From NCBI GenBank assembly GCA_964358705.1, contig CAYHPL010000012.1, forward strand, positions 39,247 through 103,246: a stretch of DNA of 64,000 nt, given 5' to 3'. Below are positions 36,692-51,167 of the stretch, in pieces; position 1 is the first letter of the stretch; every line of letters starts with the position of its first letter. The notes under the pieces were generated by a model that saw nothing but the letters and a program-made list of their open reading frames with translations, searched no databases and was not told where the DNA came from. The stretch is from an uncultured Chitinophagales bacterium (GTDB lineage Bacteria; Bacteroidota; Ignavibacteria; UBA10030; F1-140-MAGs086). The position numbers were made by a program, and so were the translations under genes.

Positions 36692-37833
36692 TCCAATTCA
36701 CGTGAAATAGATTCTTCGAGAGGAAGACGCTCTGTTGGCGGCAGAACTTCCCATGTGTATGTTTCTACTTCGAAATGATTGGTAAATTTATTCATACGTT
36801 GTTTGTAGAATAGTGCAAGAATATCTTCCTGCGTGGAATTAATTGTACCATACGATTGCATAAAAACAGGAATGTGATAGTGTATTCTCCATTCGTTTGC
36901 ATCCGTTGTAAAAATATTCTCAAGCGCTTGATGTAAATCCTGATAATGCAAAAATTCTCCGGAAGATTTTTTTTCAATTGTCTGATGAAGGTATGAAGAT
37001 TCAGCAAACGGCAGGAGAATTTCGTACAATTTTTTTCTTTCATCTTTTTCTTTCGGAAGAAATACATTGAGCGCTGCGCTGATTTGCACTTTGCCAATTT
37101 GAATTCCTTCATTGGTAAATTTTTGTATTGCCTCGTCTGGTAGTTCATATCCAACGGCAAAATGGCACGCATCATAACAAATGCGAATATGTTCGCGTAT
37201 TATTTCTTCATCTTCTCCCAATAAATAATTTTTGAAAAAATCTATCGCTTCATCTGTGTTTTCAATTACACCGTCTGCTTCGGGTTCTATGTCAAGATGA
37301 AGAACTTGTCCTGATTCTTTTTTTATTTGATGAAGCGCATTCGCGACAATTTTGATATTGTTTGCAGACGATGCGAAAACATTTTTAACATCGTTTTCAT
37401 TTTTACACCAATGTCTGTACGATAATGGTGAAGTGGAAATACCGCCATCAATACCAGCGGGAAGAAGTTGTGAAAGAATGTGAAACATTCGTAAGGTAAA
37501 ATCTTTTCTTGCATCCGTGCTCCAGTCCGGAGCGTGTACATTATCTTTCACGACGACATTGTGAAAACCGCCAAATACAAATCCATTGATGGTAAAAACA
37601 TAGAGGTCGTTTTCATGAAGCCAGTCTTTAAAAGACTCTAATGTGCTGTTGAAAAGAAGTTCTCTGCTTGCAATATCTGAAAGACGCAATCCTACACCGA
37701 AAGCGTTATGCGGTGAAATTTTTTTTTTAATGCGTGGGACAGAAATTTTCAATGCAGAAAAAATATCTTCCCAATGCTCTCCTGAATGGATATTGGTGCA
37801 ATAGGTGAGATGTGCTGATGAGCTAATTTTCAT
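36667..37833 (-). CDS. eboE: EboE-like TIM-barrel protein (xylose isomerase-like; metabolite traffic protein EboE)
   Basis: ~390 aa with N-terminal YCTNIHSGE. Position between the DHQS-like gene and the phosphodiesterase gene, as in the ebo operon. Confidence 0.6.
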   Translation of the reverse strand: MKISSSAHLTYCTNIHSGEHWEDIFSALKISVPRIKKKISPHNAFGVGLRLSDIASRELLFNSTLESFKDWLHENDLYVFTINGFVFGGFHNVVVKDNVHAPDWSTDARKDFTLRMFHILSQLLPAGIDGGISTSPLSYRHWCKNENDVKNVFASSANNIKIVANALHQIKKESGQVLHLDIEPEADGVIENTDEAIDFFKNYLLGEDEEIIREHIRICYDACHFAVGYELPDEAIQKFTNEGIQIGKVQISAALNVFLPKEKDERKKLYEILLPFAESSYLHQTIEKKSSGEFLHYQDLHQALENIFTTDANEWRIHYHIPVFMQSYGTINSTQEDILALFYKQRMNKFTNHFEVETYTWEVLPPTERLPLEESISRELEWTLQHLQ

Positions 37834-38959
37834 TGCGAAGCAGTGCAACAGATTTTTTAATTAAACGCTTATCCATCGAATGTGTTTCAATTCCTGTGCC
37901 GATTTTTTTCAGCAGCATAATTGTAAGAACGCCGCCAAGATGCTCGCGGAATTCATCAAGTCCTTTCAATAATTCAGGATTATCAAATGCTTCCTGATAA
38001 ATTTTGAATCCGAAATTTTTTAATGCAGAAAGTATGTTTCGCCAATCCCGCTCTTCAAGTATTCCGCTCAGATAAGAATACGTGCTGTCAAGAGCGATTC
38101 CGCAGGCAACCGCTTCACCGTGCCTGATTTTAAAATTGGTAATTTGTTCAAGTTTGTGCGCAGACCAATGGCCAAAATCAAGCGGTCGCGATGTACCTGA
38201 TTCAAATGGGTCTTTTCCTGCTATGTGATTGATATGGATTTCCGCGCAGCGATGAATGAGTTGTTGCATAGCATTCATATCACGACGGAGAAGTTGTTCT
38301 GTTTGCGATTCAATAAATCTGAAAAAATTTGCATCTTTGATTAATCCGACTTTTATCGCTTCAGCAATTCCCGAACGCCAGTCGCGAAAGTCAAGAGAAG
38401 TGATAAATGAAAAATCGTTGATGACAGCAAACGGAGGAGAAAATGTTCCAAGGAAATTTTTTTTTCCGAAATAATTAATACCGTTTTTCACACCAATGCC
38501 GGCATCATTTTGCGAAAGCACTGTTGTGGGAATTCTGATGAGACGTATGCCGCGATGTGCAACAGATGCGGCGAATCCAACAGTATCAATCAGCGCTCCG
38601 CCTCCAACTGCGACAATATACGAATGGCGGCAAATGCCGTATTGTTCAACGAGAGAAATAATTTTTTCGAATGATGTTTTATTTCTCTTTGATTTTTCTC
38701 CGCCGGGAAGCGTGAGCGGGCGGCAACACAATTCAAAAACATCTTTATTTTTTTTGCAGTAAGAAGTAATTGCATCGCTGAGTTTTGGAAACCATCGTTC
38801 CACTTCGCTGTCAATAAAGAAAATAATTTTTCTTCTCTCGTTGCGATTATCCGTTGCAACAACATCGCGAAGCGAAGAATTATGTACATCAAAAATATTT
38901 TCGGTAAATACAACCGGATAAGTAAACGTTACGGAAAATTTTTGGAATATCGTTTGCAT
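37823..38959 (-). CDS. eboD: EboD-like 3-dehydroquinate synthase family protein
   Basis: DHQS-family motifs VGGGALIDTVGFAA, RGIRLIRIPTTVLSQNDAGIGVKNGIN. Confidence 0.75.
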   Translation of the reverse strand: MQTIFQKFSVTFTYPVVFTENIFDVHNSSLRDVVATDNRNERRKIIFFIDSEVERWFPKLSDAITSYCKKNKDVFELCCRPLTLPGGEKSKRNKTSFEKIISLVEQYGICRHSYIVAVGGGALIDTVGFAASVAHRGIRLIRIPTTVLSQNDAGIGVKNGINYFGKKNFLGTFSPPFAVINDFSFITSLDFRDWRSGIAEAIKVGLIKDANFFRFIESQTEQLLRRDMNAMQQLIHRCAEIHINHIAGKDPFESGTSRPLDFGHWSAHKLEQITNFKIRHGEAVACGIALDSTYSYLSGILEERDWRNILSALKNFGFKIYQEAFDNPELLKGLDEFREHLGGVLTIMLLKKIGTGIETHSMDKRLIKKSVALLRNEN

Positions 38960-38995
38960 TTAAAAAGTAGTGTTCAAAAAAATAGATGAGGGTTT

Positions 38996-39910
38996 TCAGG
39001 TAATTGCAAAAATACGAGAGAGAAAAACGGAAACAGGCAGCAAGGCGGAGATAAGAATACCATATTCAACGCCTGCAAAACCCGCCGCAAGAGAAGCGTT
39101 CATTAAAATTATTGAGAGAACACCGTACTGCACTGCAATGCGGATTTTTTCGGCTGACGGTTCTTTGGTTGCGTTTACAAGCGGTACAAGAGTACATCCG
39201 CTGAAAAGTATAATAAAAGCAAATGCATTTGTTAAATTGAAAACAGGGAGAAGAGCGTATGAAATAAGAGCGAGTATTACTACGTTAAAGAGTGCGAGCG
39301 CTGGAAATAAATTTCTTTTTGTCGCTCCGTGCACTTCTTTTTTGCTCACCAATGTAACTGCGGAAATAAAAACTAAAGGAGCAAAACCGAGAAACCAGAA
39401 TGAAGTTAATTTTTCTGCAATAATGCTCATTCCCAAAAAAAGATTTCCTGCGCGGCACATTCCCATATTTAATGGTGCCAATAGTGTGTGTTTGAAAAAT
39501 GCGTTGTAACCAAGCGCGAGAAGCGCTACCGCAAAAGCAATTGATGCGCTCAATATTGAATTCTGATACGCTGCATAAATTCCCAAAAGAAGAAGTACTA
39601 TGCCAAATATACTTGCTGTTGTTACCGTAGCAAGTCCTCGTGGAATCGGTCGCTCGGGACGTTCTTTTTTATCAAGTTCTGCATCAAACACATCATTGAA
39701 AATAATTCCGCCTGCGTACAGACATGTTGTTGAAAGAATGAGCCAGCTGATTTTTGATGACAATGAAATTGGAAAATAATTTTCCTGTGCAGTAAAAATA
39801 CCGGAGACTGCAACTCCCGCAAGAATATCGGATATTGCTGTAATTATGTTAGCAGGACGTGCAAGTCGTATGTATGCAACAACTTTTTCTCCCAACGTCG
39901 GAGTATTCAT
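38996..39910 (-). CDS. eboC: EboC-like UbiA family prenyltransferase
   Basis: Polytopic membrane protein with NDVFDAELDKKERPERPIPRG (NDxxDxxxD prenyltransferase motif). Confidence 0.8.
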   Translation of the reverse strand: MNTPTLGEKVVAYIRLARPANIITAISDILAGVAVSGIFTAQENYFPISLSSKISWLILSTTCLYAGGIIFNDVFDAELDKKERPERPIPRGLATVTTASIFGIVLLLLGIYAAYQNSILSASIAFAVALLALGYNAFFKHTLLAPLNMGMCRAGNLFLGMSIIAEKLTSFWFLGFAPLVFISAVTLVSKKEVHGATKRNLFPALALFNVVILALISYALLPVFNLTNAFAFIILFSGCTLVPLVNATKEPSAEKIRIAVQYGVLSIILMNASLAAGFAGVEYGILISALLPVSVFLSRIFAIT

Positions 39911-40815
39911 GAAATGATTTTCGATTGTTTTCTTTCATGAAGTGGTGATTGCCCTCCGCGTAATATTGTGCTTCCTTCAAATTTTCTTGTGCGGTCAATG
40001 GTTTCGGTTTTCATCCAATCTGCTTCCTGCATTTGTCCGCTTTGTCCGAATGCAAGCAATGCGTTGTTATAACACACATTCTGAACATCTTCTTCTGCAA
40101 TGCCGCGCTCAAGCATCAGTGACGCAGTTTTTGGTAATGCAAGCGGGTCACTGATTCCCCAATCTGCGGCGCTGTTTATCATAATGTTTTTGCTGCCATA
40201 CATTTTTACAATTTCTACCATACGCTCGTTTCCCATTTTTGTAAACGGATAAATAGTAAATGCAGCCCAAAATCCGCGCTCAAGAACTTCCTTCACTGTT
40301 TCTTCATTGTTGTGGTCAACGATTACCATATTTGGCGGAATATTGTGTTCGTTGCAAACATCCATACTGCGCGATGTTCCTTTCTTTTTATCGCGGTGAG
40401 GTGTATGAATCTGTACGGGCAACTTTATTTCTTTTGATAGTTCAAGTTGCAGGCGAAAATATTTATCTTCCGCATCTGTTTGGTCATCATAGCCGATTTC
40501 CCCGACGCCGACAACACCTTCTTTGCAAAGATACAGCGGAAGAATTTCCATTACCTGTTCAGCGAGCACTTCATTATTTGCCTCTTTGGAATTAATACCG
40601 ATTGTGCAGTAATGTTTTATGCCAAATTGCGATGCGCGAAATCGTTCCCATCCGATGAGTGAACTAAAATAATCACGAAACGTTCCAATTTCTGTTCGCG
40701 GCTGTCCTAACCAAAATGCCGGTTCGATGATTGCTACAATTCCGGCTTCAAACATTACTTCATAATCGTCTGTCGTTCGTGAAGTCATGTGAACGTGCGG
40801 GTCAATAAATTTCAT
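39907..40815 (-). CDS. eboB: EboB-like TatD family hydrolase
   Basis: MKFIDPHVHM metal-binding N-terminus of TatD-family TIM-barrel hydrolases. 4 nt overlap with eboC. Confidence 0.75.
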   Translation of the reverse strand: MKFIDPHVHMTSRTTDDYEVMFEAGIVAIIEPAFWLGQPRTEIGTFRDYFSSLIGWERFRASQFGIKHYCTIGINSKEANNEVLAEQVMEILPLYLCKEGVVGVGEIGYDDQTDAEDKYFRLQLELSKEIKLPVQIHTPHRDKKKGTSRSMDVCNEHNIPPNMVIVDHNNEETVKEVLERGFWAAFTIYPFTKMGNERMVEIVKMYGSKNIMINSAADWGISDPLALPKTASLMLERGIAEEDVQNVCYNNALLAFGQSGQMQEADWMKTETIDRTRKFEGSTILRGGQSPLHERKQSKIIS

Positions 40816-40841
40816 AAATCACTGATACAAATAAAAAAAAA

Positions 40842-41810
40842 TTATGGATTCAAAGTAAGTATTTCTTTTCCGAGCGCATTCCATGAAAAAGAATCGTTGA
40901 GATTTTCATTCTGCAATGTGATGAGATTTTTTTTTGCTTCGGGAAAATTGCATTGCGTACAAACAAGCGCTGCCGCTTTTTGTTCGAGAATATTGTTGCT
41001 CATTGCCAGTTTGTGAATGTCTGTAATATTCTTTTCGTCCACAAACGGAACGACACATCGCCAAAGTTCCGGCGTTACTGTTCTTCCCGCCGCCCAGCGT
41101 TCATGCACATAATCAATAAGTGTATCACAGAGACTCTTATTCACTCGTTCATCAATGCCAATTATGCGGAACAACGGACGATTAATAAAAATAGCTTTTA
41201 ATACCAATTGATTCCACGCATTTTCAGAAAAGAAATCCGCTGGGTACGGATTTTCAAGTGCGATTGCATCGAAGACATCACGCATATTGGAGCGCACGCC
41301 TTCTGCGGCAAGTAAAACAAATTCTTCCGGAAATGGCAGTAACGGCAATGAAGAATAAATTGCCGCTAACTCTGCAATATCCGCAGAAGTAATAAGAGAG
41401 CGCACAGATTGCACAAAAGCAGAATCATTTTCTCTGAAGTAGCTCAGCAAAAAAATAATTCTTGCCGCTCTGTCTACAGTATATAAAGTTGGATTCCAGT
41501 TTTTGCGAAGAAAATTTGCTTCTTCTAATCGTTGAGAACTAAAATGTAGTTTTTCTTTTCCAACAAAACGAGGGGCAGCGCTAAACGCAAGATAAAATTC
41601 TTTTTGCGAAAAAATTGCACTGCTTTTTTCTCTCAGCCACTGTGTGCCATCTTGCGGCGATACAGCAGATACTGATTGGAGCAAAAAATCTTTTACTTCA
41701 TTCAAATCGCACTGGTAAATATTTTCGTTCATTCTGTATGTTCTTATTGTACTGATAATCAGGGACGACAAAAAAAATGCAGAGTCTGACAATAAAATCG
41801 GACTCTGCAT
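40842..41810 (-). CDS. eboA: EboA family protein
   Basis: ~300 aa hypothetical protein at the head of the TatD-UbiA-DHQS-TIM-AlkP series. The assignment rests on operon position. Confidence 0.5.
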   Translation of the reverse strand: MQSPILLSDSAFFLSSLIISTIRTYRMNENIYQCDLNEVKDFLLQSVSAVSPQDGTQWLREKSSAIFSQKEFYLAFSAAPRFVGKEKLHFSSQRLEEANFLRKNWNPTLYTVDRAARIIFLLSYFRENDSAFVQSVRSLITSADIAELAAIYSSLPLLPFPEEFVLLAAEGVRSNMRDVFDAIALENPYPADFFSENAWNQLVLKAIFINRPLFRIIGIDERVNKSLCDTLIDYVHERWAAGRTVTPELWRCVVPFVDEKNITDIHKLAMSNNILEQKAAALVCTQCNFPEAKKNLITLQNENLNDSFSWNALGKEILTLNP

Positions 41811-41818
41811 TTATATTG

Positions 41819-43270
41819 TTACTTTACGTTCTTGAGAATTGTTAATAAAAATTTCCAGAATTTATCTACCGTATCAATGTGCAGTCTTTCATCCGGTGAA
41901 TGAACGCCTTCCATTGTTGGTCCGAAAGAAACCATATCCATACCGGGACAACGTTCACCAATAATACCGCATTCCAATCCTGCATGAATTGCTTTTACTG
42001 CGGCATTTTTTTTGTAAAGAGATTTGTAGGAAGTCTGCGCGACTTTTAAAATTTCGGATTGCATATTCGGTTTCCATCCGGGATAACCATCAGATGTTGT
42101 TATGTTTGCTCCGCCAAGTTCAAAAATATTACGAACGGTTTCACAAATTTCTTCAATTTCCGATGCAACGGAACTGCGCTGACTTGTTGCAATTGCTATT
42201 GTTTTCTTATCCGTCGTAATTACTGCAACATTCGTTGAAGTTTCAACGAGCCCGGAAATATCCGCGCTCAATTTCATTACGCCGTGCGGTAATGCGGAAA
42301 TGGTTTGCATCACTTTTTTCTGTACGGATTTCTTCACAACTTTTCCCTTTGATTTAACAGATACGATGGAAATTGTTAAATCCGGTTCTGCAGTAGAAAG
42401 TTCTGCCTTGATTATTTTTTGCATTTCTTCCACAACGAGCATTGCATTATTCACAGATTTTTTCGGAACAAACAGCAACGCATCACATTCGCGCGGAATT
42501 GCATTGCGCTTATTTCCGCCATTGATAGTTGAAAGTCGTGCGCCCAATGCAGAAAGTTTTACAAGAACGCGATTCAGTATTTTTATTGCATTGCCGCGTC
42601 CCTTATCAATTTCCAATCCGGAATGTCCGCCTTTTAACCCGAATACTTTCAATTGCATAGCGGAAGTATTTGCGGGAGAATTTTCCGCTTCTGTATTCCA
42701 CGTTCCGGTGGTGTCGCGACCGCCGGAACAGCCAACGTACAACGCGCCTTCTTCTTCGCTGTCAAGATTCATCATTGTTTTGCTTTGCACAAAATCGCGC
42801 GCTAAATTGCTTGCGCCGGTCAATCCTGTTTCTTCATCAATGGTGAAAAGAAGTTCAAGCGGACCGTGTTCAAGCGATTTGTCTTCCGCAATCGCAAGCA
42901 TTGTTGCAACTGCGATGCCATTATCCGCGCCGAGTGTTGTGCCGTTTGCCATCAGCATATTGCCGTTTACGACAAGTTCAATGGCGTCTTTCATAAAATC
43001 AAATTTCTTGTCAGAATTTTTTTCGCACACCATATCAAGATGTCCCTGCAAGCAGAGCATCTTTACATTTTCTTTTCCCTTCGAAGCAGATTTTGTAATC
43101 AATACGTTGCCGAACGAATCTTTTTTTGCCGGTAAGCCGAGTTTTTTTGCTGTATCGAGAACGTATGCGATGATGCGTTCTTCGTGTTTGGATGGACGTG
43201 GAACTTTTGCGATTTCCGCAAAATATTTCCATACGAGTTTTGGTTGTAAACCTTCAATTGCATTTGCCAT
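41819..43270 (-). CDS. pepD: Aminoacyl-histidine dipeptidase (Xaa-His dipeptidase, M20C family)
   Basis: N-terminus MANAIEGLQPKLVWKYFAEIAKVPRPSKHEERI matches PepD. 483 aa M20 fold. Only 8 nt upstream of eboA. Confidence 0.8.
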   Translation of the reverse strand: MANAIEGLQPKLVWKYFAEIAKVPRPSKHEERIIAYVLDTAKKLGLPAKKDSFGNVLITKSASKGKENVKMLCLQGHLDMVCEKNSDKKFDFMKDAIELVVNGNMLMANGTTLGADNGIAVATMLAIAEDKSLEHGPLELLFTIDEETGLTGASNLARDFVQSKTMMNLDSEEEGALYVGCSGGRDTTGTWNTEAENSPANTSAMQLKVFGLKGGHSGLEIDKGRGNAIKILNRVLVKLSALGARLSTINGGNKRNAIPRECDALLFVPKKSVNNAMLVVEEMQKIIKAELSTAEPDLTISIVSVKSKGKVVKKSVQKKVMQTISALPHGVMKLSADISGLVETSTNVAVITTDKKTIAIATSQRSSVASEIEEICETVRNIFELGGANITTSDGYPGWKPNMQSEILKVAQTSYKSLYKKNAAVKAIHAGLECGIIGERCPGMDMVSFGPTMEGVHSPDERLHIDTVDKFWKFLLTILKNVK

Positions 43271-43295
43271 AATTGTGTGTTAAGTTAAGTTGTGT

Positions 43296-43367
43296 GGGAG
43301 AAAATTGTTATAAAAAAGCGGGAGAAAACTACTGAAAAATGAAGGGAGAATCAAATAGTTTTTGCGC
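43296..43367 (+). repeat. 24 bp-periodic direct repeats with GGGAGAA cores
   Basis: GGGAGAA at 43296, 43320 and 43344 (exactly 24 bp apart) with ~17/24 identity between units. Lies 25-100 nt upstream of the pepD start (opposite strand). Confidence 0.5.
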
Positions 43368-43759
43368 GAAAAGAGAAAATATTCAGCGGTGGGATTTTTT
43401 GAAAGATATTTTTATACCAACATCAAATCTTTTCTCATAATTGCTCAATGTCTCTTTAGCAAGTTGAATGACTTATACTCCGCTTCCTATTACAGAAGCG
43501 TGCGTACATAGTATGAATTGCCAGCCCAACAATATTCTGCCTTCCTCCTTTTTGCTTACTAATTTTTTTTCCTATCTTTTGCCCGCCAAAATTCACATTT
43601 AATATGCCTCAACTTATAATTTTATAAAAAAATACTATGCACGAATAAATGAACTCTACAAGCAGCAATCTCCGACAAATTAAACGGAAAAAAAGCGAAG
43701 GAATATCTCAGGAATGAGAATTTATTGAGGAATCCATATTTTTTTCACATCGGTTTTGA

Positions 43760-43830
43760 CCCCTGACTTCAAATAATGCGGTCGAAGTCAAGATTCTTGA
43801 GGTTGAAGTAAAGTTTTTTGACTTCGATGT
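43760..43830 (+). repeat. Three alternating-orientation copies of a TTGACTTCG motif (nested inverted repeats)
   Basis: tgacttcaa (43764-43772), cgaagtcaag (43783-43792), ttgacttcg (43818-43826). Forms a 7 bp and a 9 bp perfect inverted-repeat pair. Confidence 0.5.
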
Positions 43831-43860
43831 CAGATTACTTGATGTTGATGGTTAATACCC

Positions 43861-43888
43861 GTAGGGAACAGTCGCGACTGTTCCCTAC
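43861..43888. promoter_or_regulatory. Perfect 28 bp palindrome (operator-like) 65 nt upstream of the HEAT-MTase gene
   Basis: gtagggaacagtcg|cgactgttccctac is fully self-complementary. No flanking T-tract on either strand, so it is unlikely to be a terminator. Confidence 0.5.
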
Positions 43889-43953
43889 AAGGATGTAGAA
43901 ACCTGCATTAATCCAACAGGATTTGTATGGATTTGTAATATATTTAAAGAAAA

Positions 43954-45327
43954 ATGCTAACAAAAGAATATATAAAAGAACTAAAGACCATCGGCAACGG
44001 TGCAATAGGACACCTTGTTAAAGAGTATAGGGATAGCGGTTCATTAACTTTTATTCTTGAAAGTTTAGGACATCTTCCAAGTGATTTTGATGGTACTTTT
44101 CTACCCGACTTATTACATCACAAAAGTTCATCAGTTCGACTTTGGGCTATTAAAACACTTGGCAAACTTGATAATGACGACTATTTAAAAATTTTGCGAC
44201 AAGCAGCGTTCACAGAAAAAGACACGAATGTCAGACGTGAAGCCGTTTCTTCAATTGGAAGAATGAGAAGTAAAAAAGGCCAAACAATTCTTTTTGAAAT
44301 TTTGCAAGACCAAGACCCGAAAGTGATAAGTCAAGCAATCAGAGGGCTTTTAGTTTTCAAAGGCGACAAAGAAGTTGATGAACATTTAAAGCCACTTATA
44401 AATCACCCAAATGAAATGGTGAGGACGGTTATTTATAAAGAATATTTTGCAGAAAAAAAAGTCCAAACAGAACAACCTCATAAGGAAAGTTTCGACTATT
44501 TAAAAAATGTTGTAGTAAATGCGGACACTATTGAAACGATGAAATTGCTCAAAGAAGAAAGCGTTCATTTAACTTTCACATCTCCGCCATATTACAATGC
44601 AAGGGACTATTCAATTTATCCGAGTTACAAGCATTACATAGAATTTCTTGCAGAAGTTTTCAGAGAAGTTTATCGTATCACTAAAGAAGGAAGATTTTTA
44701 ATTCTCAACACATCTCCAATCATAATTCCAAGAATAAGTCGTTCACATTCAAGCAAGCGTTATCCAATTCCGTTTGACATTCATCCATACTTAATGGAAA
44801 TGGGATGGGATTTCATTGATGATATTGTATGGTTGAAACCAGAAGCAAGTGTAAAAAATCGCATTGGTGGTTTTATGCAACACCGAAAACCATTAGGATA
44901 CAAACCAAATTCTGTAACTGAATATTTAATGGTGTATCGCAAGGGTACAGAAAAACTTTTGGATTGGAACATCAAACAATACGATTGGAAGACAGTGAAA
45001 GAAAGTAAAGTTGCAGATGGTTACGAAACAAATAATGTTTGGAAAATAGACCCTTGCTTTGATAAAATTCATTCAGCCGTTTTTCCTGTTGAACTATGCA
45101 AACGAGTAATTCAATATTACTCCTTCAAAGGTGATTTAGTTTTTGACCCATTTGGAGGAAGCGGGACAGTAGGCAAGACCGCAAAAAGTTTAGTCAGGTA
45201 TTTTTTCCTTACGGAAAAAGACAAAAAATATTTTGATTATATGAAATCCAAAAAATCAAATGGAATGTTTGATGAGCATCCTACCAAATTTTTAACCCTT
45301 AACGATTTTCATCAAACAATAAAATGA
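43954..45327 (+). CDS. DNA methyltransferase (beta-class N6A/N4C amino-MTase) with N-terminal HEAT/PBS-lyase-like repeat domain
   Basis: C-terminal half has motif IV FTSPPYYNA (SPPY) preceding motif I VFDPFGGSGTVGKTA, the beta-class order. N-terminal ~170 aa has repeated ~30-aa units (SSVRLWAIKTLGKL, TNVRREAVSSIGRM, DPKVISQAIRGL, NEMVRTVIY) typical of HEAT-like repeats. Confidence 0.65.
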   Translation: MLTKEYIKELKTIGNGAIGHLVKEYRDSGSLTFILESLGHLPSDFDGTFLPDLLHHKSSSVRLWAIKTLGKLDNDDYLKILRQAAFTEKDTNVRREAVSSIGRMRSKKGQTILFEILQDQDPKVISQAIRGLLVFKGDKEVDEHLKPLINHPNEMVRTVIYKEYFAEKKVQTEQPHKESFDYLKNVVVNADTIETMKLLKEESVHLTFTSPPYYNARDYSIYPSYKHYIEFLAEVFREVYRITKEGRFLILNTSPIIIPRISRSHSSKRYPIPFDIHPYLMEMGWDFIDDIVWLKPEASVKNRIGGFMQHRKPLGYKPNSVTEYLMVYRKGTEKLLDWNIKQYDWKTVKESKVADGYETNNVWKIDPCFDKIHSAVFPVELCKRVIQYYSFKGDLVFDPFGGSGTVGKTAKSLVRYFFLTEKDKKYFDYMKSKKSNGMFDEHPTKFLTLNDFHQTIK

Positions 45328-46229
45328 CACTAACAGAACAAGTAGCCAAAAACATTATAAAAAAACTTTTGAAAGGTGCTGATTACCGAATTGAAGTTGT
45401 AACCCTCATCAATGCGGAATTTTTGCAATTCGCAATAGAGTTTTTCAAAAAAATTATTGATGCTAAACTTCAAAGCAAAAACATAACTGTTGATTGGTAT
45501 AAGGAAGCGTTTCTTAATCCGAAATTACCAGCAAATGAAATTGCAATCAATTCAGGATTGAACAAAAAGACCATTCACAATATGTTCAATTCATCTACAA
45601 AGGAAATTGTGATTGATGCAGCAAATGAACATTACGATATTCTTTATCAAAGCATAAAAGATTTAGTTGAAACTGAACACGAATTAGATTTAACTCTCAC
45701 TATAAAATTCAAAGGTGTTTCAGTTGACTTGAATGTAAGTGAAAGTTTAATCGTGATTAATACACTTGCAGTAAAACGAGCTGAACTTCGTGGTGGACTT
45801 TGGAGCACGGCAGGGAAGAGAGTTGAAAATCCGTTAATGCAAACACTTTGTAAATTGTATTCAGTAAACGAAGAAAATTACAGAGCAAAATTTGTCAAAG
45901 ACAAAGCAAAAGGATTTGATAGAGAGATAGATTTTTATTTGCTCAAAGATAGAAAAGAATTTTTGTGCGAAGTAAAATTAATGGGTAGCGGAAATCCTGA
46001 AAGTGCTGATGCTGTAATTGCAAGAGCAACAAATGTTTTTGTTGCAGACAAACTCTCACTTCAAAATAAAAGTCAACTTGAAAGTTTGAAAATAAATTGG
46101 ATTGAATTGCGAAGTGAAAACGGTTGGAAGCGTTTTAAAATCGCATTGGAAAATTTAGAAATACCACATAAGGATTATAACGGAAATTTAGATAATGACC
46201 TTGATAAAATATTTGCGGAGATATTTTGA
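45324..46229 (+). CDS. Putative PD-(D/E)xK nuclease (candidate cognate restriction endonuclease)
   Basis: 301 aa. Start overlaps the MTase stop (ATGA). GFDREIDFYLL...EFLCEVKLMG fits a D...E-x-K catalytic motif. No other recognisable family signature. Confidence 0.35.
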   Translation: MTLTEQVAKNIIKKLLKGADYRIEVVTLINAEFLQFAIEFFKKIIDAKLQSKNITVDWYKEAFLNPKLPANEIAINSGLNKKTIHNMFNSSTKEIVIDAANEHYDILYQSIKDLVETEHELDLTLTIKFKGVSVDLNVSESLIVINTLAVKRAELRGGLWSTAGKRVENPLMQTLCKLYSVNEENYRAKFVKDKAKGFDREIDFYLLKDRKEFLCEVKLMGSGNPESADAVIARATNVFVADKLSLQNKSQLESLKINWIELRSENGWKRFKIALENLEIPHKDYNGNLDNDLDKIFAEIF

Positions 46230-46592
46230 CAACACGACAATGAAAGTAAATCGCCTTGAACAAACTTCCTACGAACTTCAAACAGTAGTGCTTCGTGGGA
46301 ACAGTACGGCAGCAGATAACATAAGATTAAAAGAAATTTTAAAAAGAAGGCTTTGTCCGGTAATCAAACAGTGGTGCATCTAAACCCTTCTTTTTTTTAC
46401 TTCATTAATCCCTTCTTCGTTATGCACAACCTTATTGGCGATAGTGCGAACTTTGAACGAGCATTTTATAACAATTAAACAAACATGACAGAACTTTTAT
46501 TGAACAGGCAACGCTTCGTGTCTTTCGCAGGAAATTCATTTTCCACAAAAAACATAAAGAAACAAATTGCACAAGAAAAATCATAAATAACA

Positions 46593-46624
46593 AAGGTCAA
46601 GCAGAAAAATTTCGGCTTGACCTT
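46593..46624. terminator. 10 bp perfect-stem hairpin between converging genes (possible bidirectional terminator)
   Basis: aaggtcaagc ..12 nt.. gcttgacctt. Weak T-tract on the minus-strand side only. Confidence 0.35.
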
Positions 46625-46646
46625 AATTACGTAACTGTTGAAAAAA

Positions 46647-48500
46647 TTATTTTATGAGCATCAATTTTTTTGTCTGTACGAAACTCTGCTCGTTGTCGTC
46701 TTCGATTTGTAATCGGTAAAAATATACACCTGTTGCAAATCCATGAGCATTCCATTCTATGGAATGAGTTCCGTTCTCCAATTCTTCCTGCTCGATAAGT
46801 GTTGCCACTTTCTCGCCGAGAACATTGTACAGCGATAGGTTCACGACCGCAGAGCGTTCTAATACGAACTCTATTTGAGTCGTTGGATTAAATGGATTTG
46901 GATAGTTTTGTAATAAAGTGAAATCTTCAACGCTTTGCTCAACAAAGTTTGAAACAGATTTCGCTACCGGAATAGAATATTTAACCAAAAATGAATCAAC
47001 AATTGCATACAATGTATTATTGGTACCACGTTCCATATACATCAAAGAATCATCGAAATCAAGTATATCCGTATTGTTTCCGTTAGCATCAAAGACATAA
47101 ATTGAATCTCCGCCGTTCAAACGAACATAGCAATTTTCGTCATCATCAATAGTAATATCTCTTATAGCATCGTAATCTTGTGTATGAATTTCCTTCGTCC
47201 ATACGGGTTTCAATTTTTTCATATCAAACTTCATCAGAGTAGGACGATACGCTCCTTGAATTCGAATACCATTTTTGTTGAATTTTCTTTCATCAAACGC
47301 TCCACCGATAAAAATGTTCTCTTTCGAACTCATCTCTGCATCGTGAATACCGTTATAACGATTTGAGCGAATTTGCTTATTCACTTTTACTTCCTCTTTT
47401 CCTTTCCCTTTATACAGCTTTAGTTTCATTTTAGAAGAAGAGTTTGATGTAATAATACCCCAGTCAACGGCGTCTGTTAGTTTTCCTTTCCCGCCGGCAG
47501 AACTTATTTTTCGTTCTTTATCGGAATAGTCGCCTAGATAGACTGAATTTCCAGCGCTATCGGTAAAGGAAAATTCAAATGAAAAATCTTCTTCATTTTC
47601 GTCTTCGTCGTTTGTAGAATATTTTCCATCAAATTTTCCTACGGTGACGGATTTTGAATTTGATAGTTGTGTCCCGTCATCGTCATTAATTTCGATTCTA
47701 TTCATATCGTTTCTTTTTTTCTTTTTCGTTTGTTGGTCGGTAACAATGGTATTTGTAAAAGCAGTAACGACAATATTTCCTGTAGCCTTTTGAGTCGCAC
47801 GAATCAATTTATCGCTCACATCGGTTGTCAAACTTTTTTCAAATGAAACCACGCCCGATGGGAGAACTTTTTTTATTTTGTTGCCGCTTCGTAGTAAGAG
47901 ATTATCATTACCATCAATATTTAATATCTCTCCGTTTATAGAGAATTTCTCATCGCCCAGTGAATCGAAACATACCGTGTTTCCATCAATCGTCAGATAA
48001 ACATCGTCTAATGAATCATTCCAGAAAATGTGTTTTGATTTATCAGATTCAGCATCTTGCCTCCATAAAATAATTCCATCAGGACTTATTTTAAATAAAC
48101 TATCCTGCGATAAACAAAGCACATCTCCGTTGTCAAGTACCATAATCTTTACCTCATGTTCGTCATCATCATCAGACGGGTCATCATTGTCGTCATCGTC
48201 TAATGGATTATCATAATCTTCAGGGTCGTCGTTATCGTTATCGTCATCGTTTCCGTCATTATCGTTATCGTCGTCATCATCATCATCATCGTCGCTGCTG
48301 ACATCAGTAGAGTCGTCATCATCGCTGTCGTCGTCACTCGGGTCATCGTCGTCTCCCCCCGTAGTGTCATCTAATGATTGGTGTAATTCTTTCTGCATTC
48401 CTATTTTTACCCGCCACAATTCAGTTTGTGCTTCTGAAGTGTTTTGGAGAAAACAAGTAAAGAGAAAAAAGAGTACAATAAGTAATATTAAGTTTTTCAT
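46647..48500 (-). CDS. T9SS C-terminal-sorted secreted protein with an extreme poly-Asp acidic tract
   Basis: Signal peptide. ~70-residue D/N/S-rich tract (…DDDDDDDDDNDNDGNDDDNDNDD…). C-terminal LQNYPNPFNPTTQIEF...GVYFYRLQ T9SS CTD. Confidence 0.75.
   Translation of the reverse strand: MKNLILLIVLFFLFTCFLQNTSEAQTELWRVKIGMQKELHQSLDDTTGGDDDDPSDDDSDDDDSTDVSSDDDDDDDDDNDNDGNDDDNDNDDPEDYDNPLDDDDNDDPSDDDDEHEVKIMVLDNGDVLCLSQDSLFKISPDGIILWRQDAESDKSKHIFWNDSLDDVYLTIDGNTVCFDSLGDEKFSINGEILNIDGNDNLLLRSGNKIKKVLPSGVVSFEKSLTTDVSDKLIRATQKATGNIVVTAFTNTIVTDQQTKKKKRNDMNRIEINDDDGTQLSNSKSVTVGKFDGKYSTNDEDENEEDFSFEFSFTDSAGNSVYLGDYSDKERKISSAGGKGKLTDAVDWGIITSNSSSKMKLKLYKGKGKEEVKVNKQIRSNRYNGIHDAEMSSKENIFIGGAFDERKFNKNGIRIQGAYRPTLMKFDMKKLKPVWTKEIHTQDYDAIRDITIDDDENCYVRLNGGDSIYVFDANGNNTDILDFDDSLMYMERGTNNTLYAIVDSFLVKYSIPVAKSVSNFVEQSVEDFTLLQNYPNPFNPTTQIEFVLERSAVVNLSLYNVLGEKVATLIEQEELENGTHSIEWNAHGFATGVYFYRLQIEDDNEQSFVQTKKLMLIK
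48150..48370. repeat. GAY/GTC trinucleotide-rich low-complexity run encoding the poly-Asp tract
   Basis: Plus strand reads gtcatcatcatcagacgggtcatcattgtcgtcatcgtc... over ~200 nt. Confidence 0.7.
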
Positions 48501-48692
48501 AAGTAGTGTCTAATTTAATTGTGATTGGTAAAAATCTTAGTTAAATATAATTAAGATAAATAGGTGTGAATGTGTTCTGTATCACGAAAGACATCATTGT
48601 TATCAAAATAACTTATTGTTGCACTTTTGGGCAATTAGATTCAATTAATAAATGCAACTGAAGCGCAAATGTAGTGTTAAGTACTTTTTCTC

Positions 48693-49061
48693 TCACGTCA
48701 CTCGCACCACAAATCCATCTTTTTCCATTTTCAAAATAAACACTGCGATGCGTCCGTAAATAGTATCTTCGGTTTCGTTGAATTGTACGCGCATCTTCTC
48801 TGCAATTTCGATGAGCGTCGTGTTGCCGTCGCAATTGTTCCATATAAAACTTCCACGTTCATCAAGTTTTACGCGAAAGTTTTTTTTCTTGAGCAGCGGA
48901 ACGAGCCATTGCACCATAAACGCATTGCGGAATTTCGGAATAAGAAGAACTATATTGCCGTTTGTTCCTGTTTCATATTGCAGATTGCGGCGATACGTTA
49001 ATTCAAAAATATTTTCTTCGGAGGTATTTTCTATTGTGTCAGTCATAGTATAAAAAAACAA
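48693..49061 (-). CDS. PqqD-family-like small protein (RiPP-recognition-element-like)
   Basis: …VKLDERGSFIWNNCDGNTTLIEIAEKMRVQFNETEDTIYGRIAVFILKMEKDGFVV fits the PqqD pattern (IW..DG..T..EI...L...F......D...F...L...G.V). Likely start is the internal M (49046). Confidence 0.45.
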   Translation of the reverse strand: MFFYTMTDTIENTSEENIFELTYRRNLQYETGTNGNIVLLIPKFRNAFMVQWLVPLLKKKNFRVKLDERGSFIWNNCDGNTTLIEIAEKMRVQFNETEDTIYGRIAVFILKMEKDGFVVRVT

Positions 49062-49115
49062 TTGGACGTTATCGCACTGACAACGTCCAATGTATTACTG
49101 TGTGTAAATAAAAAA

Positions 49116-51167
49116 TTACATTACTGCAATCGGTGGCGCCGGGTCATCCGGTTTTCCTGCATTCTTTACAGGAATATTTATAAGAATCCAACCGATAATT
49201 CCCAAAATTACGAGACTCGTAATGAATGACGGCTCTTGGAAAATCGCAAAGAGTTTTACTTCGCCAAATGCCAATGCGGCAAAGAGCAATCCAATCAATG
49301 CTTCGCCTGCAATCAAACCTGATGCGAGAAGAACGCCGGTATTTTCCACGCGCGCCTTTTGTGCATCGTTGTGTCCTTTTCGTGCATTCATTTTTTCAAC
49401 AAGTCCTTTGAAAATTCCACCGAGGAAAATTGCAAACGTTGTTTCGAGCGGCAAATACATACCAACACTGACAAGCATAGGGCTGCGAACCTGCATCAAT
49501 ATAAATCCTAAGCCCATCAACATTCCGACAACGATAAGGGGCCATGCCATTTGTCCGCCAACAATTCCTTGCGAAAGTAATGCCATCAAACTCGCTTGCG
49601 GCGCAGGAAGATTTTTTCCACCAAATCCTGTTCCACCGCTGTAAATATCGCCTTGATGCAAAACAATCAATGGGAGAAACATTACTGCTGAAGCAAGTCC
49701 AACGCCAATCAAATCGCCGATTTCCATTTTCCATGGAGTACCGCCGAGAATGTGTCCGACTTTTAAATCTTGCAACATCTCACCAGCAACTGCGGCAGAA
49801 ACGCAAACAACTGCAGCAACACCAAGAACTGCGGCAACACCTGTTTGACCTGTCATTCCGAGCGCAACCATCAACAATGCAGCAACAAGCAGTGTAGAAA
49901 GCGTCAATCCGCTGATAGGATTATTTGATGAACCGATTGTTCCTACGAGATAACCTGAAACAGCAGCAAAGAAAAATCCCGCAATAATCATCACAACGGT
50001 TGCAACCAAAGCCGCTCCTACATTTTGTGCGAAGTGATTGTATATGAAAAACGTTAATACGGCAGTGCCAAGAATTCCAATCATAATCCACTTGAAATTC
50101 AAATCTTGTTCGGTGCGTTCATTTACTTGTTCACCTGCGGCTGCTTTTTTTACATCGCTGATGGAACGACTGATACCTGCAATCAAACTCTTTCTCATTC
50201 TGAATAACGTAAATCCAGCGCTTACTAACATTCCTCCGATTGCAATTGGTCGCACAATGAAACGCCATACGCTTGTTGCCATTGCAATCCAATCACCGTC
50301 GGTGGGAGTCATTCCGGGATTTGAAACCAGCCAGTTCTCCAGTAAATTCGGTGCAAGGAAATATGTAATTATGGGAACGAACAATCCCCACGCAAGCAAT
50401 CCGCCGCTGAAGTTGAGTGAAGCAAGTTTTGGTCCGATGATGTAGCCGACGCCGATATATGCGGGACTGATTCCGGGAGAACTCAATACAATTCCACCGG
50501 GCATATTTTTCTTCGATTCGATGATAAGTTTTTTATCAACCAGCGTTTGCAGAATAAGCGGGAATGAAACGAATTTTTCCCACGATGTTGCAAAGAATTT
50601 AAATTGACCGAGTGACTGGACGAGCGCACCAAATCCCATTGCGGTGAATAAAAATTTTGCTCCTGTTCCGCCTGCGCGTCCTGCTTTATGAATTTCAGAA
50701 GCGGCAACAGATTCGGGAAATGGAAGGTCAACATCTTCTACCATTACACGACGAAGAAGCGCAACGAACATGATGCCGAGAACGCCGCCTGCAAGCATAA
50801 TAAATGTTGATTCAAGGTAATGTCCTGTTGTTGCAAACTCGGGCCAAATTCCTGCAATATAAAATGCGGGAATAGTGAAAATTGCGCCGGCAGCAACGGA
50901 TTCACCAATTGAGCCGACGGTACGAGCAAAGTTTTCTTCGAGAATACTTCCTTTCATTACACGCAATAATGCCATACCGATAACTGCGGCGGGATATGTA
51001 GCGGCAATGGTCATTCCTGCTTTTAAACCGAGATAAGCATTCGCCGCGCCAAGCACGACGCACATTATCAATCCGATGACGAGCGCACGCACGGTGAATT
51101 CCTTCATATCAGTATTCGCCGATACGAACGGCATAAATTTTGAAGGTGTTTTTGATTGTTCAGCCAT
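49116..51167 (-). CDS. OPT family oligopeptide transporter
   Basis: 683 aa polytopic membrane protein with the N-terminus ...FTVRALVIGLIMCVVLGAANAYLGLKAGMTIAATYPAAVIGMALL typical of bacterial OPT transporters. Confidence 0.75.
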   Translation of the reverse strand: MAEQSKTPSKFMPFVSANTDMKEFTVRALVIGLIMCVVLGAANAYLGLKAGMTIAATYPAAVIGMALLRVMKGSILEENFARTVGSIGESVAAGAIFTIPAFYIAGIWPEFATTGHYLESTFIMLAGGVLGIMFVALLRRVMVEDVDLPFPESVAASEIHKAGRAGGTGAKFLFTAMGFGALVQSLGQFKFFATSWEKFVSFPLILQTLVDKKLIIESKKNMPGGIVLSSPGISPAYIGVGYIIGPKLASLNFSGGLLAWGLFVPIITYFLAPNLLENWLVSNPGMTPTDGDWIAMATSVWRFIVRPIAIGGMLVSAGFTLFRMRKSLIAGISRSISDVKKAAAGEQVNERTEQDLNFKWIMIGILGTAVLTFFIYNHFAQNVGAALVATVVMIIAGFFFAAVSGYLVGTIGSSNNPISGLTLSTLLVAALLMVALGMTGQTGVAAVLGVAAVVCVSAAVAGEMLQDLKVGHILGGTPWKMEIGDLIGVGLASAVMFLPLIVLHQGDIYSGGTGFGGKNLPAPQASLMALLSQGIVGGQMAWPLIVVGMLMGLGFILMQVRSPMLVSVGMYLPLETTFAIFLGGIFKGLVEKMNARKGHNDAQKARVENTGVLLASGLIAGEALIGLLFAALAFGEVKLFAIFQEPSFITSLVILGIIGWILINIPVKNAGKPDDPAPPIAVM

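What the first reader, a model, noticed from the sequence alone, without database searches (positions are those of the whole stretch)
43954..46229. HEAT-repeat-fused amino-methyltransferase with an overlapping PD-(D/E)xK-like gene: atypical RM-like or candidate novel system in an AT-rich island
The 457 aa protein joins an N-terminal array of ~30 aa HEAT/PBS-lyase-like repeats (VRLWAIKTLGKL, VRREAVSSIGRM, VISQAIRGL, MVRTVIY) to a beta-class DNA amino-methyltransferase (SPPY motif IV before DPFGGSGT motif I). The next gene (301 aa) overlaps its stop by ATGA and has a plausible D...EVK nuclease motif but no recognisable restriction-enzyme family signature. A HEAT-repeat domain in place of the usual HTH autoregulatory N-terminus of an MTase is, to my knowledge, not a described architecture. 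The pair sits in a noticeably AT-richer 3.4 kb stretch flanked by conserved chromosomal genes (pepD and a T9SS protein gene), consistent with horizontal acquisition.
Basis: partly seen in the sequence, partly recalled or inferred. Interest (0 to 1): 0.7.

Follow-up and report, generated by a model that had tools for sequence, protein, structure and literature searches.

The report
Restriction-modification gene pair with HEAT-repeat methylase
This is an ordinary two-gene bacterial restriction-modification (anti-foreign-DNA) cassette of the known CfrBI family; its one unusual feature, a helical HEAT-repeat domain on the methylase, is real, common in databases and of unknown role.

Summary
The sequence features are real. 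A 457-aa protein (43954-45327) joins an N-terminal HEAT-like helical-repeat domain to a beta-class N6/N4 DNA methyltransferase (SPPY before DPFGGSGT). A 301-aa gene (45324-46229) overlaps it by ATGA. The 301-aa protein matches Pfam RE_CfrBI (87 bits, cut-off 25) and a PADLOC Type II REase model end to end (E 7e-106). NCBI already names relatives 'CfrBI family restriction endonuclease'. The HEAT-MTase/REase pair is a compact cassette found in many phyla, including CPR bacteria and DPANN archaea. In 77 of 77 testable genome loci the fused MTase sits directly upstream of the REase. The HEAT domain is under purifying selection (dN/dS about 0.04-0.07), but a 62%-identical MTase core exists without it. 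Its role is unknown. I found no paper on it, although databases catalogue the architecture. The recognition site was not determined; CCWWGG depletion is not specific. Verdict: new member of a known kind, low to moderate interest.

The parts
43954..45327 (+). Gene for the HEAT-repeat / beta-class N6/N4 DNA methyltransferase fusion (457 aa)
   Evidence: ORF. Pfam HEAT_2 plus N6_N4_Mtase. PADLOC MTase_II E 1.7e-78. The 120 best homologues all have the same architecture.
43954..44463 (+). N-terminal HEAT-like alpha-solenoid domain (res 1-170: two cap hairpins plus about 4 repeats of roughly 31 aa)
   Evidence: HEAT_2 E 8e-17. alphaRep PDB hits. AF2 pLDDT 80-95 with 11 helices. Foldseek matches alphaRep and CpcE/F. 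The invariant residues cluster in the last repeats: Q127, R130, L132, F135, H151, N153, E154, I160, E163.
44509..45327 (+). MTase catalytic core (res 186-457). Motif IV SPPY lies at 44581-44592 and motif I DPFGGSGT at 45145-45168. The order IV then I defines the beta class.
   Evidence: PF01555 covers res 204-431. Best PDB sequence hit is TTHA0409, 2zie, E 1.3e-19. The motifs are invariant in 42 sequences.
45324..45327 (+). ATGA overlap: the REase start codon overlaps the MTase stop codon, suggesting translational coupling
   Evidence: tblastn coordinates place the two genes in the same junction in most closely related loci.
45324..46229 (+). CfrBI-family Type II restriction endonuclease gene (301 aa). 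The putative PD-(D/E)xK catalytic residues D203, E216 and K218 are encoded at 45930-45977.
   Evidence: PF09516 at 87 bits. PADLOC REase_II E 7e-106. Homologues are named 'CfrBI family restriction endonuclease'. The catalytic residues are invariant. The AF2 core has alpha-beta-beta-beta-alpha-beta topology with confident strands 198-208 and 211-218.
43271..43953 (.). AT-rich non-coding spacer upstream of the cassette. It holds the best sigma-70-like site (43592-43620) and a unique 28-bp perfect palindrome (43861-43888). It is not conserved with the cassette in other hosts.
   Evidence: No ORF of 50 aa or more lies wholly within the spacer. No credible Rfam match in 42500-47500: one chance-level hit outside the spacer (mir-2009 at 46508-46565, 20 bits against a gathering score of 90, E 0.92). 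Promoter scan. Palindrome. blastn similarity to 80 loci begins only at 43938-43954.
43271..48692 (.). Variable insert relative to related genomes (about 5.4 kb): spacer, RM cassette, spacer, and the T9SS-tail acidic protein gene (46647-48500, minus strand)
   Evidence: More than 20 loci with pepD 63-88% identical have OPT-PqqD-pepD contiguous with no MTase, REase or T9SS gene. Island GC is 0.345 against 0.397.

Best explanation
This is an orthodox Type II restriction-modification cassette of the CfrBI family, acquired horizontally as a bare two-gene unit.

How it most likely works:
- The two genes are co-transcribed, MTase first. The REase start codon overlaps the MTase stop (ATGA). REase synthesis is therefore probably translationally coupled to MTase synthesis, so it cannot outrun it (inferred).
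- The MTase is a beta-class amino-methyltransferase. It uses S-adenosylmethionine to methylate an exocyclic amino group in a short, probably palindromic site. The SPPY motif IV and the kinship to M.CfrBI-like enzymes point to N4 of cytosine (inferred).
- The REase is a PD-(D/E)xK enzyme (D203, E216, K218), presumably a Mg2+-dependent homodimer. It cuts the same site when unmethylated and so destroys incoming phage or plasmid DNA (inferred from family membership).
- By analogy with CfrBI the site may be CCWWGG or a relative such as CCNNGG. This was not established.

The HEAT-like domain:
- It is a constrained accessory module anchored to the catalytic core through its last, most conserved repeats.
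- It is not needed for methyl transfer as such, because a 62%-identical core lacks it.
- Its partner is most likely something the cassette carries with it or finds in any cell: DNA (non-specific binding or a clamp; pI about 9), or the MTase or REase itself. The reason is that the same cassette is found in hosts from Bacteroidota to CPR bacteria and DPANN archaea (inference, low confidence).
For: Identity of the parts:
- REase family: PF09516 at 87.1 bits against a cut-off of 25, covering nearly the whole model. PADLOC REase_II E 7e-106 over res 1-298. All 120 best homologues carry PF09516, and NCBI names them as CfrBI family.
- MTase: PF01555 E 6.7e-37 and PADLOC MTase_II E 1.7e-78.
- The nearest solved structures are TTHA0409, CcrM and the rotifer N4CMT. 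The CfrBI preprint reports the same neighbours for M.CfrBI.
- M.CfrBI makes N4-methylcytosine in CCWWGG (PMC6556831).

Linkage and intactness:
- The HEAT-MTase lies directly upstream of the REase in 77 of 77 testable loci out of 80.
- The pairing persists in relatives at 59% and 40% MTase identity.
- Catalytic motifs are invariant.
- dN/dS in unsaturated pairs is 0.04-0.07 for HEAT, 0.01-0.04 for the MTase core and 0.02-0.05 for the REase.

Mobility:
- DNA similarity to all 80 loci is confined to 43938-46241.
- Empty sites exist in relatives.
- Cassette GC is lower than flank GC in 32 of 35 loci.

HEAT as an accessory:
- Relatives of the core carry other N-terminal modules or none.
- The conserved residues concentrate in the repeats adjacent to the core.
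Against: - There is no experimental evidence of methylation or cleavage for any member of this subfamily.
- The recognition site is unknown. CCWWGG is depleted only against a dinucleotide model (10 observed against 23 expected). It is not depleted once tri- or tetranucleotide composition is modelled (10 against 10.0 and 9.8).
- In pooled host loci the CCWWGG depletion (0.66-0.78) is unremarkable among palindromes.
- The REase AF2 model is weak (mean pLDDT 59) and Foldseek found no significant solved homologue (best MspJI, E 9e-3). The nuclease fold therefore rests on profile hits and the motif.
- The gene arrangement (co-directional, overlapping) differs from the divergent CfrBI prototype, and no CCWWGG site lies in the upstream region.
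- The promoter is not identified.
- The proposed HEAT role has no direct support.
Confidence: 0.85

Rival explanations
1. The HEAT domain gives the cassette a new control principle. For example, it binds the cognate REase, or MTase dimers, and so sets the M:R activity balance during establishment in a naive host. Alternatively it acts as a decoy or sensor for phage anti-restriction proteins. The pair would then be an RM variant with a built-in, host-independent regulator.
For: - HEAT is retained in every REase-linked copy (77 of 77; P0241) and is under strong purifying selection.
- A 62%-identical HEAT-less core occurs as a REase-less MTase in a phage-like region.
- Most cassettes, including the window's, have no controller gene.
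- The cassette is found across bacterial phyla and archaea, so any regulator must be self-contained.
- HEAT and alphaRep scaffolds are classic protein-binding surfaces.
Against: - There is no direct evidence of an M-R interaction.
- A solitary HEAT-MTase without a REase exists (P0247).
- The N-terminal repeats vary in number and sequence (33-86% identity; shorter arrays in P0246, P0252 and P0262).
- Translational coupling alone is a sufficient and known way to order M and R expression.
- The HEAT-less comparison rests on a single locus.
Confidence: 0.1
2. One reading: the HEAT domain replaces the N-terminal HTH of autoregulatory MTases (SsoII, EcoRII or MspI type). It binds an operator in the cassette's own promoter to repress M and activate R transcription.
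For: - The domain is N-terminal, as in those MTases.
- It is mildly basic, pI about 9.0.
- A 28-bp perfect palindrome lies 65 nt upstream of the ATG.
Against: - The upstream region, palindrome included, is not conserved with the cassette in any of 80 loci; similarity starts 16 nt or less before the ATG. A conserved domain would therefore have no conserved operator.
- Seven of 80 cassettes carry a separate XRE-type HTH gene overlapping the MTase start together with the HEAT domain.
- To my knowledge, sequence-specific operator binding has not been described for PBS-type HEAT repeats.
Confidence: 0.04
3. The pair is an inactive relic, or the MTase works alone as an orphan (epigenetic) methylase with a dead nuclease gene next to it.
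For: Decayed copies exist elsewhere. In L018 and L020 a 321-aa ORF interrupts the MTase 3' end and the REase loses its N-terminus. A solitary HEAT-MTase also exists.
Against: In the window both ORFs are full length, with all invariant catalytic residues intact. The REase shows dN/dS of 0.02-0.05 across relatives.
Confidence: 0.03

Closest known systems
CfrBI restriction-modification system of Citrobacter freundii (CCWWGG; C/CWWGG; N4-methylcytosine on the outer C)
   Same: The REase belongs to the same Pfam family (PF09516). The MTase is a beta-class N6/N4 enzyme with the same solved-structure neighbours that are reported for M.CfrBI. SPPY motif IV fits an N4-cytosine enzyme (general knowledge of MTase motifs).
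   Different: - CfrBI genes are divergent, with a CfrBI site in the shared promoter that gives methylation-dependent control (bioRxiv 10.64898/2025.12.04.692298). Here the genes are co-directional, M first, overlapping by ATGA, and there is no CCWWGG site between 38453 and 49731.
- The MTase carries a roughly 170-aa HEAT domain.
- The Pfam score (87 bits) indicates a distant subfamily, so the recognition site may differ.
Type II MTases with N-terminal regulatory HTH regions (M.SsoII, M.EcoRII, M.MspI)
   Same: An extra N-terminal domain is fused to a Type II MTase of an RM pair (M.SsoII: PMC3978073, listed).
   Different: Those are C5-cytosine MTases with a short (about 70 aa) HTH that binds a defined operator. 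Here the domain is a 170-aa alpha-solenoid, no operator is conserved, and a separate HTH gene co-occurs in some cassettes.
CcrM-type beta-class MTases with an extra non-specific DNA-binding domain, and other N-terminal fusions of this MTase core (ParB_N, HhH/UPF0758_N, PDZ)
   Same: They have the same catalytic fold (6pbd hit). They follow the same principle of a swappable accessory module added to a beta-class core.
   Different: In CcrM the extra domain is C-terminal and is not a HEAT fold (my knowledge of the 6PBD structure paper). CcrM is a solitary N6-adenine MTase, whereas this enzyme is REase-linked.
PBS-lyase-type HEAT-like repeat proteins (CpcE/CpcF, NblB; consensus-designed alphaRep)
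   Same: The repeat sequence and predicted fold match.
   Different: Those proteins bind proteins or chromophores in cyanobacteria or are synthetic binders. None is part of a DNA-modifying enzyme.

Membership tests
Orthodox Type II restriction-modification system | Separate, adjacent MTase and REase genes | tested here: met
   43954-45327 and 45324-46229, same strand, 4-nt overlap. Adjacent in 77 of 77 testable loci.
Orthodox Type II restriction-modification system | MTase with an AdoMet-binding motif I and a catalytic motif IV | tested here: met
   DPFGGSGT (398-405) and SPPY (210-213) are invariant in 42 sequences. PF01555 E 6.7e-37.
Orthodox Type II restriction-modification system | REase with a nuclease active site (PD-(D/E)xK here) | tested here: inconclusive
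   D203, E216 and K218 are invariant, and the AF2 core topology is compatible. However, the model's mean pLDDT is 59 and Foldseek finds no significant match.
Orthodox Type II restriction-modification system | MTase and REase recognise the same site, and methylation blocks cleavage | not testable with these tools
   Needs biochemistry or a methylome.
Pfam PF09516 RE_CfrBI | Profile score above the gathering threshold over most of the model | tested here: met
   87.1 bits against 25; res 8-245 match model positions 4-253 of 257. The precomputed Pfam assignment is the same in all 120 best homologues.
Pfam PF09516 RE_CfrBI | CCWWGG specificity of the prototype | tested here: inconclusive
   In the window, CCWWGG occurs 10 times against 23 expected (dinucleotide model) but about 10 expected (order 3-4 Markov). 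In pooled host loci the ratio is 0.66-0.78, against 1.07 in controls, but many other palindromes are depleted more.
CfrBI-type regulation (divergent genes, recognition site in the shared promoter) | Divergent M and R genes with a cognate site in the intergenic promoter | tested here: not met
   The genes are co-directional and overlapping. No CCWWGG lies in 38454-49730.
Beta-class N6/N4 amino-MTases (PF01555) | Motif order IV...TRD...I, and a profile score above threshold | tested here: met
N4-cytosine MTases | Transfers methyl to N4 of cytosine (an SPPY/SPPF motif IV is typical; DPPY is typical of N6-adenine enzymes) | not testable with these tools
   SPPY is present and M.CfrBI is an N4mC enzyme. 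Base specificity cannot be proven from sequence. NCBIfam adenine-MTase models score far below their cut-offs.
HEAT / PBS-lyase HEAT-like repeat domain (PF13646) | Profile score above threshold and an alpha-solenoid of helical hairpins | tested here: met
   HEAT_2 at 61.8 bits against 27.7. AF2 res 1-165 confident helical hairpins. Foldseek matches alphaRep and CpcE/F.
C-protein-controlled RM systems | A small HTH controller gene in the operon | tested here: not met
   No such ORF lies in 43271-43953 and tblastn finds nothing in the window. The gene is present in 7 of 80 related cassettes.
MTases with an N-terminal autoregulatory HTH (SsoII-like) | An HTH in the N-terminal extension and a conserved operator upstream | tested here: not met
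   The N-terminus is HEAT, not HTH. The upstream DNA is not conserved with the cassette.

The most novel reading that the evidence does not exclude
The HEAT array is a self-contained, host-independent control or coupling module for a Type II RM system. It might tether or mask the cognate REase, clamp the MTase on DNA so that methylation outpaces cleavage during establishment, or act as a decoy for anti-restriction proteins. Such a module could explain why this exact cassette persists in hosts from Bacteroidota to CPR bacteria and DPANN archaea, mostly without a controller gene.
Probability: 0.12. Interest if true: 0.6.

Novelty: new member of a known kind. Interest (0 to 1): 0.22.

Why it matters
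As it stands the finding matters little. It adds one more copy of a catalogued Type II RM cassette to a groundwater MAG.

Two points have modest value:
- An uncharacterised subfamily of CfrBI-like enzymes is abundant in uncultivated lineages, including CPR and DPANN. Its recognition site is unknown. Knowing it would help interpret metagenomic methylomes and DNA-transfer barriers in those organisms.
- The strictly retained, selectively constrained HEAT domain on the MTase has no published function that I could find. A simple deletion experiment could show whether accessory solenoid domains tune DNA binding or the M/R balance in Type II systems.

Tried and rejected
1. Recognition site from palindrome avoidance.
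- I tested the window, 745 kb of pooled host loci, and RM-free control loci.
- CCWWGG depletion disappears under higher-order models, and depletion is broad (GGCC, GATC, CCNNGG, TCGA).
- CCNNGG (0.66 against 1.03 in controls) is a lead only.

2. Fold confirmation of the REase.
- The AF2 model from a shallow alignment (80-95% identity) had mean pLDDT 59.
- Foldseek against the PDB gave nothing significant, and phmmer against PDB sequences also found nothing.

3. The MTase core was also poorly modelled. Only the HEAT part is reliable.

4. A carrier element was sought. No relatives of the REase turned up in IMG/VR viral contigs or PLSDB plasmids. No conserved flanks or terminal repeats surround the cassette.

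5. The 28-bp palindrome as operator or terminator was rejected as part of the system. It is unique in the window, has no T-run (one search found no terminators), and is not conserved with the cassette.

6. Literature on HEAT-MTase fusions: three searches found nothing relevant. The library lacks most subscription journals, so absence is weak evidence.

7. Rfam scan of 42500-47500: only one chance-level hit.

8. Names for the window's exact proteins: they are present in NCBI, ENA and Logan but unnamed.
Full report
**1. Observation**

The two ORFs exist exactly as described. The first is 43954..45327 (+, 457 aa). The second is 45324..46229 (+, 301 aa). The second start codon overlaps the first stop as ATGA.

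The 457-aa protein hits Pfam HEAT_2 (61.8 bits, E 8e-17, res 53-132 plus a second stretch). It also hits N6_N4_Mtase (128 bits, E 6.7e-37, res 204-431). Sequence search of the PDB returns designed alphaRep (PBS-HEAT-like) chains for residues about 17-160. For the C-terminal part it returns beta-class MTases: TTHA0409, CcrM, the rotifer N4CMT, PvuII, MboIIA and DpnA.

An AF2 model from 42 homologues is poor overall (mean pLDDT 60.5). Residues 1-165, however, are a confident (pLDDT about 80-95) stack of 11 helices in hairpins. Foldseek matches this part to alphaRep proteins and to the CpcE/CpcF phycocyanin lyase, and matches the rest to TTHA0409, CcrM and N4CMT.

**2. The second gene is not an orphan nuclease**

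The 301-aa protein matches Pfam PF09516 RE_CfrBI at 87.1 bits (gathering cut-off 25), covering model positions 4-253 of 257. It also matches PADLOC Type II REase model PDLC03496 over its whole length (E 7e-106).

The protein returned 4210 relatives in the protein collection. The 120 best all carry PF09516, and NCBI names them 'CfrBI family restriction endonuclease'.

In the AF2 model they sit on two consecutive confident strands of an alpha-beta-beta-beta-alpha-beta core. The whole-model fold search was not significant, and no solved relative exists.

**3. How common is the HEAT-MTase?**

The MTase query returns 4350 hits. The 120 best (72-100% identity) all have HEAT_2+N6_N4_Mtase. Sources name them 'HEAT repeat domain-containing protein', 'DNA methyltransferase' or 'DNA modification methylase'.

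One PADLOC MTase_II model (PDLC03276) aligns from residue 65, that is, into the HEAT region. The architecture is therefore already represented in curated RM profile sets.

Three literature searches found no paper that discusses the fusion. It is catalogued but, as far as I could search, uncharacterised.

**4. Synteny and spread**

A scan of one genome per species with the REase gave 80 loci at 63-95% identity. The hosts include:
- Bacteroidota, Ignavibacteria and several proteobacterial classes
- Nitrospirota, Chloroflexota, Actinomycetota and spirochaetes
- a cyanobacterium
- many CPR/Patescibacteria
- archaea (Altarchaeum, Pacearchaeota, Woesearchaeota)

By tblastn, 77 of the 80 loci have HEAT and MTase directly upstream of the REase. 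The other three are cut by contig ends. The HEAT part is the fastest-evolving (33-86% identity, against 63-94% for the MTase core and 63-95% for the REase).

The pairing also holds for a 59%-identical, 595-aa HEAT-MTase (P0241) and for a 40%-identical MTase with a shortened N-terminal region (P0262). Both are followed by an overlapping RE_CfrBI gene. One HEAT-MTase (P0247) is solitary.

**5. Is HEAT needed, and for what?**

Relatives of the same MTase core carry other N-terminal modules or none:
- S24 peptidase plus HEAT
- PDZ
- ParB_N
- UPF0758_N/HhH
- none

A 62%-identical core without HEAT (P0249) sits beside a second MTase in a phage-like region with no REase. The HEAT array is therefore not required for methyl-transfer chemistry.

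It is nevertheless functional. In sequence pairs with unsaturated dS, dN/dS is 0.04-0.07 for HEAT, 0.01-0.04 for the core and 0.02-0.05 for the REase.

Across 73 family members the invariant N-terminal residues cluster in the last 1.5 repeats next to the core: Q127, R130, L132, F135, H151, N153, E154, I160 and E163, then H176, L183 and N185. The first repeats vary. This suggests the array is anchored on the catalytic domain and projects a variable distal end. The domain is mildly basic (pI about 9).

Because the cassette is found in hosts across domains of life, the ligand should be universal (DNA) or encoded in the cassette (MTase or REase). This is inference.

- DNA similarity among 80 cassettes starts 16 nt or less before the ATG, so no operator is conserved.
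- Seven cassettes have a separate XRE-type HTH gene overlapping the MTase start in addition to HEAT. The window has none.

**6. Recognition site**

CfrBI recognises CCWWGG, cuts C/CWWGG, and M.CfrBI makes N4mC on the outer cytosine (PMC6556831). SPPY fits an N4-cytosine enzyme (general knowledge of MTase motifs).

I could not confirm the site. In the window, CCWWGG occurs 10 times, against 23 +/- 4.7 expected from dinucleotide shuffles. Order-3 and order-4 Markov models, however, predict 10.0 and 9.8.

In 745 kb of host loci the ratio is 0.66-0.78, against 1.07 in RM-free control loci. GGCC, GATC, CCNNGG (0.66 against 1.03), TCGA and others are depleted as much or more. The test is not discriminating.

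**7. Genomic context**

The cassette's GC content is 0.332, against 0.397 for the rest of the window. That is lower than any other 2276-bp window outside the island (profile). In 32 of 35 other hosts the cassette is also GC-poorer than its flanks.

More than 20 relatives of the flanking pepD gene (63-88% identity; the closest also has OPT at 93%) show OPT-PqqD-pepD contiguous, with about 40-220 bp between PqqD and pepD. The window therefore carries a roughly 5.4-kb insert (43271-48692). This insert also contains the T9SS-tail acidic protein gene (46647-48500; Por_Secre_tail).

No phage-contig or plasmid relatives of the REase were found. No terminal repeats or conserved flanks accompany the cassette.

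The upstream spacer has a good sigma-70-like site (43592-43620, 11 of 12 matches). Such sites are no more frequent here than in shuffled sequence. The spacer also holds a unique 28-bp perfect palindrome at 43861-43888. Neither feature is conserved with the cassette.

**8. Verdict**

This is a routine Type II RM cassette of the CfrBI family. Its MTase carries a widespread, database-annotated but functionally unstudied HEAT-like N-terminal domain.

It works like an orthodox Type IIP system (confidence about 0.85). The steps shown are the family memberships, motif integrity, strict gene linkage, purifying selection and horizontal insertion. The steps inferred are translational coupling, N4-cytosine methylation, the site, and the HEAT role.

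Novelty: new member of a known kind. Interest is low to moderate. The only open question of note is what the HEAT array does.

Noticed in passing
window 46647-48500 (-): This 617-aa protein has a long Asp-rich low-complexity N-terminal region and a T9SS C-terminal sorting domain (Por_Secre_tail). It lies inside the same variable insert as the RM cassette. More than 20 related genomes have OPT-PqqD-pepD contiguous without it.
   Followed up: partly
window 43861-43888: A unique 28-bp perfect palindrome, GTAGGGAACAGTCG/CGACTGTTCCCTAC, lies 65 nt upstream of the MTase start. It has no T-run and is not conserved with the cassette in 80 loci. A second imperfect inverted repeat lies at 43782-43798 / 43811-43827. 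Its function is unknown.
   Followed up: partly
whole window (1-64000): Several 6-bp palindromes are nearly absent: ATCGAT 0 (14-35 expected), ACGCGT 0 (7-16), AGATCT 0 (12), AAGCTT 1 (19-24), TGATCA 1 (20-30). This suggests that other RM systems, present or past, in this host have specificities unrelated to the cassette studied.
   Followed up: no
window ~36000-41810 (-), seen via L081 gene calls: Next to pepD, on the side away from the cassette, lies an ebo-like cluster: EboA (PF28008), TatD-family hydrolase, UbiA prenyltransferase, a DHQ-synthase-like gene, and then a phosphodiesterase-family gene.
   Followed up: no
L001-L080 (genome-contig loci): The same HEAT-MTase/REase cassette occurs at 63-95% REase identity in very distant hosts. 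These include CPR/Patescibacteria (L034, L035, L040, L050, L058, L059, L061, L064) and archaea (L047 Altarchaeum, L048 Pacearchaeota, L063 Woesearchaeota, L080). Synonymous sites are saturated between most pairs, so the spread is not recent.
   Followed up: partly
L018 4633-6016 and L020 669-2050: These are decayed copies of the cassette. A 321-aa ORF with no Pfam match is inserted in the MTase 3' end, removing motif I, and the REase loses its first codons.
   Followed up: partly
L018 3205-3531; also L005, L006, L007, L013, L015, L016: A 108-aa XRE-type HTH gene (HTH_31/HTH_3) overlaps the MTase start in 7 of 80 cassettes. It is probably a controller (C) protein. It is absent from the window.
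   Followed up: partly
L062 3298-3690: In this cassette a 130-aa ORF sits between the MTase and REase genes where they normally overlap.
   Followed up: no
proteins P0244, P0281, P0284, P0371 (representatives): The same MTase core is fused to other N-terminal modules: Peptidase_S24+HEAT (P0244), PDZ (P0281), ParB_N (P0284) and UPF0758_N/HhH (P0371). P0371 is followed by an overlapping 390-aa gene with no Pfam hit, possibly an unclassified REase.
   Followed up: partly
L158 3073-4867: A HEAT-less MTase 62% identical to the window's core (P0249) lies in tandem with a second N6_N4 MTase among many small ORFs. It sits next to an intein/LAGLIDADG-bearing 1112-aa gene, in a phage-like context with no REase.
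   Followed up: no
window 46195-46383 (+): A 62-aa ORF overlaps the REase 3' end. It is called as a gene in one public assembly (L083) but is not conserved beyond the cassette end, so it is probably spurious.
   Followed up: no
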